From Somniosus microcephalus (Eukaryota): a stretch of 64,000 nt of DNA. Below, piece after piece: positions 31,225-35,312 of the stretch. The position numbers were made by a program, and so were the translations under genes. How positions within the stretch are numbered: position 1 is the stretch's first letter; every line of letters starts with the position of its first letter. Under the pieces are notes generated by a model. That model did not search any database. It had not been told where the DNA came from and worked only from the letters and a program-made list of their open reading frames with translations. The stretch is taken from NCBI GenBank assembly GCA_052327205.1, contig CM126204.1:317998001-318062000 (forward strand), read 5' to 3'.

Positions 31225-31932
31225 TATAACACTGGGAGAGATGAAAAGACACTGGCCATGATAATGAGTTTGATATTTGTGTCTGTCTAGTTTTGTTGGC
31301 ACCATCAATGGCAGCCTTCCTATAATCTGTATATTTAAACTGTCACTGCTGCACCTTTCCCAAGAGCTTACTGTGTAAAAGCAGCTGACTGGAACGTTTT
31401 TGTTCCAAAGAATGACCAAAGGGTCCCATTAAGCTCATATTAAAGCATCCAAATGATGTTTCTGAGTCAAAGGTACAAGTTGTGTGCAGCGTGATTGCAC
31501 GTTGGAGCTTCAGCATGTTGTGCCAGTGATTGTTTGAACACAGAAGCTTGATTACAATTCCCGACATTGATTATTTCCCGTCTCAGCTGCACCACGAAAA
31601 TTAAACTGCAATCCGGGGCAGGTGCTTCCCTACAAAGAGAAAGAAGGACAGACAACTTAGGGCACCAAAGTATGTCTCTTGGTGGCCAAAGATAATACTC
31701 TGACAGTCCTCGGTGCTGGCTGCCTGGCCATGCTCTCAGCCAGTTCATACACAACACAGGATAGAAAAGGAAAGAAAATATATCAAAAATAACTTCAAAG
31801 TTTGCAAATTTACATTTGACTAATTTCTACAGGTCTTTGTGAGTTTGGGATCAGATTCTCCCTTTCCCTCAATTTCTCCCCTCATGTCTTGTCTGAAAGA
31901 AAAGAACTTGCATTTATAAACAACTTGCATTT

Positions 31933-34900
31933 AGGACATAAGGTATGGAGTAAAAAGTAAAGTACTAAAAAGGGAAAAAACAGGAACTAAGTGTTACAAA
32001 ACATATTTGAAAGTTCTTTATCTGAATGCACGTAGCATTCGTAACAAAATGAATGAGTTAACAGCACAAATAACGACATATGGGTATGATCTTGTGGCCA
32101 TTACAGAAACATGGCTGCAGGGCAACCATGACTGGGAATTAAACATACCAGGTTATTTAACAATCAGGAAGGACAGGCAGGAAGGGAGAGGAGGTGGGGT
32201 GGCTATGTTAATAAAGGAAGGAATCACTATAATACAGAGAAATGAAATTGGGTCAAAGGAGCAGGATAGTGAAACAGTTTGGGTGGAGATAAGGAATAAT
32301 AAGGGGAAAAAAACACTAGTGGGCGTAGTCTATAGGCCTCCGAACAGTTGCAACTCTGTTGGACGGAGTATTAATCAGGAAATAGCTGAGGCTTGTAATA
32401 AGGGAACAGCTATAATTATGGGGGATTTTAATTATCATATTAACTGGACAAATCAAATTGGGCAGAGCAGCCTTGAGGATAAGTTCATTGAGTGTATTAG
32501 GGATGGGTTTCTTGAGCAGTATGCAACTGAACCGACCAGGGGGCAAGCAACCTTAGATTTGGTCCTGTGTAATGAGGCAGGATTAATTAAAAATGTCCTA
32601 GTAAAGGATCCCCTTGGAGTGAGTGACCATAACATGGCTGAGTTCCATATTCAATTAGAGAGTGAGAAGGTTGGATCTCAAACAAGCGTGCTGAGCTTGA
32701 ATAAAGGAGACTATGAAGGTATGAGAGCGGAATTGATTAGAGTGGACTGGGATAATAGATTAAAGGGCAAGACGGTACATGATCAATGGTGTACATTTAA
32801 GGAGTTATTTTACAACTTCCAAAAAATATATATTCCACTGAGGAAAAAAGGGTGTAAAAGAAAAGATAGCCATCCGTGGCTAAGTAAAGTAATTAAGGAT
32901 AGTATCCGACTAAAAACAAGGGCATATAAGGTAGCCAAATCTAGTGGGAGGATGGAAGATTGGGAAGTCTTTAAAAGACAGCAAAAAATAACTAAAAGAT
33001 TGATTAAGAAAGGGAAGATAGATTATGAAAGTAAATTAGCAAAAAATATAAAAACAGACAGTAAAAGTTTCTATAGTCATATAAAAAGAAAAAGGGTGGC
33101 TAAAGTAAATGTTGGTCCCTTAGAGGATGAGACCGGGAAATTAATGGTGGGAAACATGGAGATGGCAAAAACACTGAACAATTATTTTGTATCAGTCTTT
33201 ACAGTAGAGGACACTAAGAATATCCCAACACTGGACAAACAGGGGGCTCTAGGGGGGGAGGAACTAAATACGATTAAAATCACTAAGGAAGTGGTACTTG
33301 GTAAAATAATGGGACTCAAGGTGGATAAATCCCCTGGACCTGATGGCTTGCATCCTAGCGTCTTGAGGGAAGTAGCGGTAGGGATTGTGGATGCATTGGT
33401 AATAATTTTCCAAAACTCACTGGACTCAGCAAAGGTCCCGGCAGATTGGAAAACTGCTAATGTAACACCCTTATTTAAAAAGGGTAGTAGGCAGAAGACT
33501 GGAAACTATAGACCTGTTAGCCTAACATCTGTGGTTGGTAAAATGTTAGAGTCCATTATTAAGGAGACAGTAACGGGACATTTGGATAAACATAATTTAA
33601 TAGGACAAACTCAGCATGGTTTCATGAAGGGGAAGTCATGTTTGACAAATTTGCTGGAGTTTTTTGAGGAAGTAACATACAGGGTGGATAAAGGGGAACC
33701 AGTGGACGTAGTGTATTTACACTTCCAAAAGGCATTTGACAAGGTGCCACACAAAAGATTATTGTTCAAGATAAAAAATCACGGGATTGGTGGTAATATT
33801 CTGGCGTGGGTGGAGGATTGGCTCTCTAACAGAAAGCAGAGAGTTGGGATAAATGGTTCGTTCTCAGATTGGCAACCAGTAACCAGTGGTGTTCCGCAGG
33901 GGTCAGTGCTGGGTCCCCAACTCTTTACAATCTATATTAACGATTTGGAGGAGGGGACCGAGTGTAACATATCAAAGTTTGCAGATGATACAAAGATGGG
34001 ACGGAAAGTAGTGAGTGAGGAGGACATAAAAAACCTGCAAGGGGACATAGACAGGCTAAGTAAGTGGGCAGAGATTTGGCAGATGGAATACAATACTGGA
34101 AAGTGTGAGGTTATGCACTTTGGCTGGAAAAATCATAGAGCAAGTTATTATCTTAATGGCAAGAAACTGGAAAGTACTGTAGTACAAAGGGATCTGGGGG
34201 TCCTGGTGCACGAAACTCAAAAAGTTAGTATGCAGGTGCAGCAAGTGATCAAGAAGGCCAATGGAATGTTGGCTTTTATTGCTAGGGGGATGGAATATAA
34301 AAACAGGGAGGTATTGCTGCAGTTGTACAAGGTATTGGTGAGACCGCACCTGGAATACTGCATACAGTTTTGGTGTCCATACTTAAGAAAAGACATACTT
34401 GCTCTCGAATCAGTACAAAGAATGTTCACTCGGTTAATCCCGGGGATGAGGGGGTGGTCATATGAGGAGAGGTTGAGTAGATTGGGACTCTACTCATTGG
34501 AGTTCAGAAGAATGAGAGGCGATCTTATTGAAACATATAAGATTGTGAAGGGGCTTGATCGGGTGGATGCGGCGAGGATGTTCCCAATGATGGGTGAAAC
34601 TAGAACTAGGGGGCATAATCTTAAAATAAGGCGATGCTCTTTCAAAACTGAGATGAGGAGAAACTTCTTCACTCAGAGGGTGGTAGGTTTGTGGAATTTG
34701 CTACCCCAGAAAGCTGTGGAAGCTACATCATTAAATAAATTTAAAACAGAAATAGATAGTTTCCTAGAGGTAAAGGGAATTAAGGGTTACGGGGAGCGGG
34801 CAGGAAATTGGACATGTGTCTAGGTTCGGAATGGTCATGGCCCTGTGGGTAGTGGAGTGGGCCCAGGGGCCGTGTAGCCTGGTTCTGCTCCTACTGTGTT

Positions 34901-35260
34901 CTAATTCTGTGTTAGATTTCAGGAGATGGTTTTATTCCTGTTCCTGGCTGGGGTGGAGATCGCCTTTACAGAAGGTAAGTACTGTAGAAAATATAGGGAC
35001 AGAGTGATCTCCTGGAAGAATTTCGATCGCCTAGATGGGTCGGAGAGGAATTTCCCAGATTTTTTTCTCCCAAATTGGCCATTGGGTCTTTATCTGGTTT
35101 TTCGCCTCTCCCGGGAGATCACATGGGTTCGGGTGGATGCAGAGTGATAGAAGATTTGAGGTTAGGATCAGATCAGCCATGATCTTATTGAATGGTGGAG
35201 CAGGCTCGAGGGGCCGATTGGCCTACTCCTGCTCCTATTTCTTATGTTCTTATGTTCTTA
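31933..35260 (+). mobile_element. Young CR1 (HER1-like) LINE with an extended 3' UTR
   Basis: Splits an aacttgcattt|atatagcgccttt L2/SINE tail; ends in (ttcttatg)n. Confidence 0.9.
32007..34823 (+). CDS. CR1 ORF2 (APE endonuclease + reverse transcriptase), open 938 aa
   Basis: YLNARSI, ITETW, GDFN, SDHN, QGSVLGP, KFADD; RT motif A reads YLHFQKAFD instead of YLDFQKAFD. Confidence 0.92.
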   Translation: MKVLYLNARSIRNKMNELTAQITTYGYDLVAITETWLQGNHDWELNIPGYLTIRKDRQEGRGGGVAMLIKEGITIIQRNEIGSKEQDSETVWVEIRNNKGKKTLVGVVYRPPNSCNSVGRSINQEIAEACNKGTAIIMGDFNYHINWTNQIGQSSLEDKFIECIRDGFLEQYATEPTRGQATLDLVLCNEAGLIKNVLVKDPLGVSDHNMAEFHIQLESEKVGSQTSVLSLNKGDYEGMRAELIRVDWDNRLKGKTVHDQWCTFKELFYNFQKIYIPLRKKGCKRKDSHPWLSKVIKDSIRLKTRAYKVAKSSGRMEDWEVFKRQQKITKRLIKKGKIDYESKLAKNIKTDSKSFYSHIKRKRVAKVNVGPLEDETGKLMVGNMEMAKTLNNYFVSVFTVEDTKNIPTLDKQGALGGEELNTIKITKEVVLGKIMGLKVDKSPGPDGLHPSVLREVAVGIVDALVIIFQNSLDSAKVPADWKTANVTPLFKKGSRQKTGNYRPVSLTSVVGKMLESIIKETVTGHLDKHNLIGQTQHGFMKGKSCLTNLLEFFEEVTYRVDKGEPVDVVYLHFQKAFDKVPHKRLLFKIKNHGIGGNILAWVEDWLSNRKQRVGINGSFSDWQPVTSGVPQGSVLGPQLFTIYINDLEEGTECNISKFADDTKMGRKVVSEEDIKNLQGDIDRLSKWAEIWQMEYNTGKCEVMHFGWKNHRASYYLNGKKLESTVVQRDLGVLVHETQKVSMQVQQVIKKANGMLAFIARGMEYKNREVLLQLYKVLVRPHLEYCIQFWCPYLRKDILALESVQRMFTRLIPGMRGWSYEERLSRLGLYSLEFRRMRGDLIETYKIVKGLDRVDAARMFPMMGETRTRGHNLKIRRCSFKTEMRRNFFTQRVVGLWNLLPQKAVEATSLNKFKTEIDSFLEVKGIKGYGERAGNWTCV

Positions 35261-35312
35261 TATAGCGCCTTTAGCATAGTAACACGTCCCAAGATGCTTC
35301 ACAGGTGAGATT

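What the first reader, a model, noticed from the sequence alone, without database searches (positions are those of the whole stretch)
35004..35122. ENE-like structured RNA module in the extended 3' UTR of the open-ORF CR1
Seen: unlike the other CR1 3' ends here, this copy has ~330 extra nt between the stop codon and the terminal tail. They contain a nested fold: outer stem gtgatctcctgg (35004-35015) / ccgggagatcac (35111-35122), side hairpin cgatc..ggtcg, stem gagagg (35043-35048) / cctctc (35105-35110), internal loop AAUUUC opposite UUUUUCG, stem ccagat / atctgg, and apical cccaa / ttggg. Known: ENEs (KSHV PAN, MALAT1, plant and fungal transposons) are U-rich internal loops between short helices that clamp A-rich 3' ends in a triple helix. 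Inference: this may be an RNA-stabilising, or otherwise catalytic or RT-binding, module carried by a vertebrate CR1 subfamily, a group that ends in microsatellites rather than poly(A). The left U-run is short, so the ENE label is tentative.
Basis: partly seen in the sequence, partly recalled or inferred. Interest (0 to 1): 0.72.

Follow-up and report, generated by a model that had tools for sequence, protein, structure and literature searches.

The report
ENE-like RNA module shark CR1s traded
A shark-type jumping gene carries a folded RNA module near its tail, picked up from an older jumping-gene family and shared with bird-like DNA; it likely grips and protects the RNA's poly(A) tail as viral and plant ENE elements do (untested), but it is optional, because a younger and more numerous sister family deleted it.

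Summary
The fold at 35004-35122 is real (z -3.5). It is a fixed trait of a young CR1 subfamily (10,573 exact 26-mer hits). The ~340 extra nt are a mosaic: a second CR1 tail hairpin, a remnant of an older CR1 family's ORF2 end, and that family's 3' UTR with the module. The module was therefore captured. Older shark families and five bird-like metagenome loci keep the stems, the latter with compensatory changes, and keep the lower loop; no Rfam match. Against an essential role: a nested, younger clade deleted it and is about twice as abundant (22,547 hits); the element encodes no poly(A) signal or A-tract; module-bearing copies are not enriched in RNA (22-29% vs 26% in DNA); 5' ends are scattered. 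Best reading: an accessory double-ENE-like poly(A) clamp (~45%), untested. RT recognition and self-cleavage are unlikely. The scan noted this module before, on other DNA of this genome and in other genomes (5 notes). No paper describing it turned up in nine searches, but the key ENE surveys could not be read.

The parts
31935..34823 (+). CR1 ORF2 (endonuclease + reverse transcriptase), open frame of 962 codons; 5'-truncated copy without ORF1
34824..34900 (+). First, internal CR1-tail-like hairpin with a short microsatellite-like end; shared by module-bearing and module-deleted subfamilies
   Evidence: weak match to the terminal tail, fold, 27,691 hits of its motif
34911..34978 (+). Non-coding remnant of the ORF2 C-terminus of an older CR1 family (B), shortened by deletions
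   Evidence: alignment to family B copies; older young-family copies keep 66 nt more (L002, L018, L030)
35004..35122 (+). The module: three-way junction closed by P1 (35004-35015 with 35111-35122), 8-nt linker 35016-35023
35024..35042 (+). P2 side hairpin with a conserved bulged G (35029), stacked at the junction
   Evidence: 92% of cells paired; G in 75 of 87 rows
35043..35110 (+). Long arm: stem P3a (35043-48 with 35105-10), lower U-rich loop (35049-54 opposite 35098-35104), stem P3b (35055-60 with 35092-97)
   Evidence: P3a has two compensatory pairs shark vs bird-like; loop columns 77-86 of 87 conserved at most positions
35061..35091 (+). Upper U-rich loop (35061-68 opposite 35087-91), stem P3c and apical loop with a conserved AUUGGC-type motif; the upper U loop is found in the shark families only
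   Evidence: absent from the bird-like copies
34934..35143 (+). Stretch (210 nt of the window) that the younger sister subfamily has deleted, including the whole module
35144..35261 (+). Terminal CR1 tail: hairpin 35197-35235 and 8-nt microsatellite 35239-35261; no poly(A) signal or A-tract

Best explanation
This is a conserved three-way-junction RNA module in the 3' UTR of some vertebrate CR1 retrotransposons, captured by this young shark-type subfamily from an older CR1 lineage, and it likely acts as an accessory double-ENE-like clamp that binds the transcript's poly(A) tail in a triple helix and slows decay. Shown: the fold, its conservation with compensatory changes, the capture, and loss in a sister clade. 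Inferred steps: (1) CR1 RNA is read through the microsatellite end and polyadenylated downstream, since the element encodes no signal; (2) the tail folds back into the U-rich loops (up to about 3-4 triples in the lower loop, 4-5 in the upper), with the invariant G-C pairs of P3a serving A-minor contacts; (3) the intronless RNA is stabilised, a modest gain that a lineage can do without. The roles of the side hairpin, the bulged G and the apical loop are not explained by this model.
For: Architecture matches the ENE definition, a U-rich internal loop beside G-C pairs, and the double-domain form (review PMC7583470). U runs lie on the sense strand on both sides of two loops in all shark groups. 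Stems covary while the lower loop stays: 86% of cells paired, 38 two-sided changes vs 15.6 in shuffles, 0 of 500, slid controls 34-54% (MAFFT alignment, 30 rows); 106 vs 44.1 on the model-fitted alignment of 86 distinct rows. After capture the module differs from the donor at 5 of 117 positions, its co-captured flanks at 30 of 182 (p 0.0014; p 0.012-0.044 once motif-fixed positions are dropped). In four other organisms depth peaks over the module relative to its flanks. In 4 of the 5 bird-like loci a second tandem unit follows, and in L169 and L185 it has a clean U7/U5 loop; L227 breaks off there. ENEs are known to aid a plant LTR retrotransposon (PMC12501189).
Against: A clade nested among module-bearing copies deleted it (support 100/100, 18 rows), is younger (0.82% mean divergence) and more numerous: 22,547 vs 10,573 exact hits; 24 of 30 loci picked by a shared motif lack it. 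No AATAAA/ATTAAA or A4 run downstream in the element, no tRNA-like piece, no poly(A) among the listed loose ends (list cut). RNA share of the module-bearing allele is 430 of 1495 and 814 of 3729 reads (29%, 22%) against 26% in DNA. The deeply conserved lower loop starts with two near-invariant A's (85 and 86 of 87), leaving only 3-4 pyrimidines. The upper loop is absent in bird-like copies, and the youngest shark copies, this one included, carry a U-to-C change in it and a competing fold. Compensatory changes come mostly from one split (shark vs bird-like), so they are few independent events; RNAalifold kept only P3a.
Confidence: 0.45

Rival explanations
1. The module is a protein-binding platform that helps the intronless CR1 RNA in another way: nuclear export, shielding from nonsense-mediated decay just behind the ORF2 stop, or RNP assembly. 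The U-rich loops would be U-U mismatch hinges or binding sites rather than poly(A) clamps.
For: Features an ENE does not need are as conserved as the U runs: the junction, the P2 core with bulged G, the two A's of the lower loop and the apical loop motif (56 of 87 rows exact). In donor families it starts about 25-30 nt behind the ORF2 stop. Structured export and stability elements of retroelements are known (recalled: CTE, RTE, RSV RSE; no call).
Against: No Rfam match. Opposed U runs between G-C-rich stems are the ENE signature, and the bird-like second units drift towards a cleaner U/U loop. Dispensability applies equally.
Confidence: 0.27
2. The module worked in the donor lineage but is a passenger in this subfamily: it came in with a nested insertion, was copied because it lies between ORF2 and the tail that RT uses, and is now decaying or being dropped.
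For: Mosaic origin; deletion clade more successful; youngest copies have a weakened fold; no RNA enrichment. The low module divergence could reflect constraint in the donor lineage only.
Against: Within the young family, shared deletions hit the captured ORF remnant but not the module, and the shared changes inside it fall in unpaired parts. This reading concerns this subfamily only and leaves the deep conservation unexplained.
Confidence: 0.17
3. The module is part of the RT (ORF2p) recognition or packaging signal.
For: Stringent LINEs recognise structured 3' UTRs (PMC3747384; PMC4316615); the module lies about 140 nt from the end.
Against: The same ORF2 lineage mobilised more than 22,000 copies without it. 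It moved between ORF2 lineages about 0.7 changes per site apart. The terminal hairpin and microsatellite are kept in both forms.
Confidence: 0.07
4. The module is a self-cleaving ribozyme.
For: Three-way junction with conserved unpaired bases; ribozymes occur in other non-LTR elements (search listing).
Against: No ribozyme family matched. Cleavage here would cut the RT-recognised tail from ORF2. Of 70 copies picked by a motif 3' of the module, 7 begin inside it, at 6 different places (3 unresolved). No pile of read ends in two raw-read runs (fragmented cDNA, weak).
Confidence: 0.04

Closest known systems
Double-domain ENE (dENE) of plant and fungal transposons, e.g. rice hAT TWIFB1; Arabidopsis Copia93/Evade ENE
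   Same: Two U-rich internal loops in one arm separated by a short helix; G-C pairs below the lower loop; irregular lower domain; place between the ORF and the 3' end of an intronless transposon RNA (reviews; PMC12501189).
   Different: Host is a vertebrate non-LTR element ending in a microsatellite with no encoded poly(A) signal; the arm sits on a three-way junction with a conserved side hairpin; the lower 5' strand begins AA; the upper loop is lineage-limited; the pocket motif and adenosine triad could not be checked; function untested.
KSHV PAN ENE (single domain)
   Same: U-rich internal loop with a short 3' linker next to a G-C-rich stem; the bird-like form is single-domain.
   Different: PAN forms five U-A-U triples; the conserved loop here offers 3-4 pyrimidines on the 5' strand.
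MALAT1/MEN-beta ENE
   Same: Vertebrate, U-rich internal loop.
   Different: No downstream A-rich tract and no tRNA-like processing element.
CR1/L2 3'-terminal stem-loop plus microsatellite (RT recognition signal)
   Same: Structured RNA in a CR1 3' UTR.
   Different: That signal is present separately at 35197-35261; the module is upstream, larger and deletable.

Membership tests
ENE / dENE | U-rich internal loop with U runs on both strands between short helices | tested here: met
   Upper loop U6-7 opposite U5 in shark groups; lower loop has 3-4 pyrimidines opposite U5-6. The window copy has a U-to-C change in the upper 3' run.
ENE / dENE | G-C pairs next to the loop for A-minor contacts | tested here: met
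   Two G-C pairs at the top of P3a in 80 and 79 of 86 distinct rows, separated from the U run by an A-G/A-Y step.
ENE / dENE | Structure conserved by covariation | tested here: met
   few independent events, mainly shark vs bird-like.
ENE / dENE | Close to a poly(A) tail or an encoded A-rich tract in the same RNA | tested here: inconclusive
   None encoded; no poly(A) among listed loose ends; a tail added after read-through cannot be seen with these data.
ENE / dENE | Triple helix with oligo(A) | not testable with these tools
   Needs melting, gel shift or probing.
ENE / dENE | Raises the level of an intronless RNA | tested here: inconclusive
   Natural comparison only: RNA share 29% and 22% vs DNA share 26%; dominated by passive read-through, runs not from the same individual.
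dENE | Adenosine triad and 3'-end pocket motif | not tested
   Named in a review; the primary paper was not held, so the sequence rule was not available.
MALAT1-type ENE | Encoded A-rich tract followed by a tRNA-like structure | tested here: not met
Known self-cleaving ribozymes | Match to a family model; fixed cleavage end | tested here: not met
CR1 RT recognition signal | Required in cis for retrotransposition | tested here: not met
   Deleted in a clade of more than 22,000 copies
CR1-clade LINE (host element) | ORF2 with endonuclease and RT, 3' hairpin, octamer microsatellite end | tested here: met
   tail features as described in PMC4316615. The clade name rests on these features and recall, not on a database label.

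The most novel reading that the evidence does not exclude
A jawed-vertebrate-wide class of poly(A)-clamping RNA stabilisers mounted on a three-way junction: older than the shark-tetrapod split, carried and swapped between CR1 LINE lineages as a portable module, doubled in sharks, tandemly multiplied in a bird-like locus, and the first ENE in a non-LTR retrotransposon, whose junction and side hairpin add an unknown tertiary or protein-binding function.
Probability: 0.3. Interest if true: 0.78.

Novelty: new variant of a known kind. Interest (0 to 1): 0.56.

Why it matters
ENEs in transposons are known from plants, fungi, a slime mould and a stickleback retrovirus (review); my searches found none in a non-LTR element. 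CR1s end in microsatellites, so how their RNA 3' ends are made and protected is open, and a poly(A) clamp would speak to it. The genome supplies a natural experiment: sister subfamilies with nearly the same ORF2, one with and one without the module, plus donor and bird-like versions for covariation and structure work. Even if it is no ENE, a fold kept between sharks and bird-like DNA and moved between LINE lineages is an uncatalogued RNA family. Its dispensability limits the claim: it is an accessory.

Tried and rejected
DNA-similarity search of the own genome gave nothing because common words are skipped; patterns were used instead. The shark-type pattern found 0 loci in metagenome and viral contigs; the variant pattern found 0 in viral contigs, 75 in metagenomes of which 5 are homologues, and 48 in prokaryote genomes, none homologous by eye. 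42 of the 70 other metagenome loci were scored with the model (best E 0.015, motif part only); the 48 genome loci were not. Rfam at gathering and E-value thresholds: no match on the module. RNAalifold on decayed single copies recovered only P3a. A first pattern for a module-less derivative found 0 because the junction differs; it was then found by sampling (L319 was flagged by a spurious downstream match and read by eye as deleted; L317 and L318 are one locus). The flank comparison for the youngest group and the window is misaligned across the 66-nt deletion and was dropped; only the older-A row is used. Some 5' ends near 34895 are chaining breaks at an indel. Strand of transcription could not be fixed: X24 shows the same mate bias over module, ORF end and tail, but library polarity is unknown. 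A kissing pair between the P2 GCC and the apical GGC was considered; both sides are invariant and the CC pairs locally in most groups, so there is no evidence. The gene, if any, behind the clustered unit (L061-L090) was not identified.

Full report
Observation. The fold is a three-way junction: P1 (12 bp), an 8-nt linker, hairpin P2, and a long arm. The arm has two U-rich internal loops. In this copy the arm competes with another fold (pair probability about 0.45). In majority sequences of 7 groups the MFE topology is the same, and P3a is at 0.97 or more in 5 of them. No Rfam family matches. The host is a 5'-truncated CR1-type LINE with an open 962-codon endonuclease-RT frame.

A subfamily trait. 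A 26-mer from the module has 10,573 exact hits in the 6.4-Gb genome, control 0. All 30 fetched loci are the same young subfamily, called A here.

Origin of the extra 340 nt. Patterns that exclude A brought up older families (B1a, B1b, B2 and rarer ones) in which the module follows a different ORF2 by about 25-30 nt and precedes a different tail. The A insert aligns to the last codons of B's ORF2, its stop, its linker, the module and about 20 nt beyond, then switches to A's terminal tail. In front of it stands another tail-like hairpin. On a tree of the ORF2 3' part (52 rows), A groups with module-less CR1s of the window, far from the three B rows. Inference: a B fragment entered a CR1 of another lineage, by nested insertion or template switch, and the chimera amplified. 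Older A copies differ from B1 at 5 of 117 module positions and 30 of 182 flank positions (p 0.0014; 0.012-0.044 after removing positions fixed by the search motifs), and shared deletions hit only the flanks.

Depth of conservation. Contigs of four other organisms show a depth peak over the module relative to neighbouring insert sequence. A short variant motif, partly guided by my recall of tetrapod CR1 UTRs, found 75 metagenome loci, 5 of them true homologues (L169, L172, L185, L197, L227). I call them bird-like because L169 also holds a CR1 ORF2 piece (41% to P0001) that resembles the avian rows in a published alignment by eye. They keep P1 with a different sequence, the P2 core, P3a with two swapped pairs, the lower loop and the apical motif, and lack the upper loop. 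They are not directly behind a CR1 ORF2; they lie in tandem units of about 173 nt with no poly(A) signal close by. That the amniote form belongs to CR1 3' UTRs rests on recall and on one row of the Suh et al. supplement (label not shown; tail of amphibian type by recall) that keeps a 15-nt piece matching the module's 3' half between ORF2 and tail. On the MAFFT alignment (30 rows chosen as the more intact copies) 86% of cells pair, with 38 two-sided changes against 15.6 in shuffles and 34-54% pairing in slid controls; the model-fitted alignment gives 106 against 44.1. These count sequences, not events: most come from the shark vs bird-like split, and RNAalifold on its own kept only P3a.

It is dispensable. 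The motif in the first tail hairpin has 27,691 hits; 24 of 30 fetched loci lack the module and 6 carry it. The module-less form keeps about 20 nt of the B remnant and the A tail, so it arose by deleting 34934-35143. Its junction has 22,547 exact hits. Its 18 copies on the tree form one clade (100/100) nested among module-bearing copies, 0.82% from their own majority sequence, against 0.7-4% for A (one recombinant row at 12%). The same loss shows in other organisms as joints from 34893 to 35144-35161. This rules out an essential role in RT recognition for this lineage.

RNA data. Two raw-read runs of a species label that holds the stretch cover the module throughout, with no pile of ends. At a site that separates young module-bearing copies from the rest, the module-bearing letter makes up 430 of 1495 and 814 of 3729 reads, against 7,891 of 30,704 in DNA: no enrichment. 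The test is weak, as most reads probably come from passive read-through, the individuals differ, and the 'other' class includes some older module-bearing copies. The element has no poly(A) signal or A4 run after the module and no tRNA-like piece. Of 70 copies picked 3' of the module, 7 start inside it, at 6 places (3 unresolved), so there is no fixed cleavage end.

Mechanism. The best reading is an accessory double-ENE-like clamp (0.45): read-through RNA gets a poly(A) tail, which folds back into the U loops. The fold, conservation, capture and loss are shown; polyadenylation, triplex and stabilisation are inferred. Rivals: a protein platform for export, NMD shielding or RNP assembly (0.27), which better explains the conserved junction, bulged G, AA step and apical motif; a passenger in this subfamily (0.17); RT signal (0.07); ribozyme (0.04).

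Comparison and novelty. It looks like a dENE but cannot be filed as one: two architectural features are met, the poly(A) partner is inconclusive, function is untested, and the MALAT1-type features are not met. Papers seen: PMC12501189 (first fifth of the text); PMC7583470 (passages and section 3.4); PMC13541005 (passages); PMC4316615 (passages and searches of supplement file 2; file 1 not searched); PMC3747384 (passages). Tycowski 2012 and 2016 and Torabi 2021 were not held and are known only through the reviews; their supplements may list this element. Nine searches (listings only for papers not named above) showed no description of it; three returned no paper at all (12, 93, 94). The scan's own notes report the same module and the same dENE comparison on other DNA; I saw them after reaching that reading, and they are not independent support. 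The capture with the donor's ORF remnant, and the nested, more abundant deletion clade in this genome, are not in the lines of those notes that I saw, although one mentions absence from a sister element in another genome. Verdict: new variant of a known kind by architecture, function unproven, interest 0.56.

Noticed in passing
L061-L090 (G000 C1 22.47-23.12 Mb, C1 34.6-34.8 Mb, C2 365.8-386.7 Mb and others): A multi-copy unit, 93-98% identical over at least 2-3 kb and often clustered at 40-60 kb spacing, carries an intact old module followed by a truncated B tail and an AATAAA about 70-120 nt further on; L086-L090 lost the tail but kept the module. It is 27 of the 30 loci, plus the diverged L082. 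Host gene or element not identified; a possible exaptation next to a poly(A) signal.
   Followed up: partly
L169, L172, L185, L197 (downstream of the motif match): Bird-like loci hold the module in tandem units of about 173 nt; the second unit lacks the P2 core and, in L169 and L185, has a cleaner U7/U5 loop; a third unit (L172, L185) is decayed.
   Followed up: partly
window 34824-34900: A second CR1-tail-like hairpin right after the ORF2 stop is kept in both module-bearing and module-deleted subfamilies (27,691 hits), so these elements have two tails.
   Followed up: partly
L295, L299: Module-deleted copies with tandem repeats of the terminal hairpin's 5' half (about 26-nt unit), suggesting RT slippage; similar 'goes back' joints appear in RNA reads.
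   Followed up: no
window 31920-31934 and 35262-35305: The CR1 copy interrupts another common repeat end; the two flanks join into one continuous motif.
   Followed up: no
window 4668-4819/8590-8741, 25794-26023/28569-28798, 40424-40678/44899-45153: Terminal repeat pairs of 97-99% identity around long ORFs (one inverted, two direct): young mobile elements.
   Followed up: no
L317/L318 (G000 C1 4.013 Mb): Inverted, head-to-head duplication of a module-deleted CR1 3' end.
   Followed up: no
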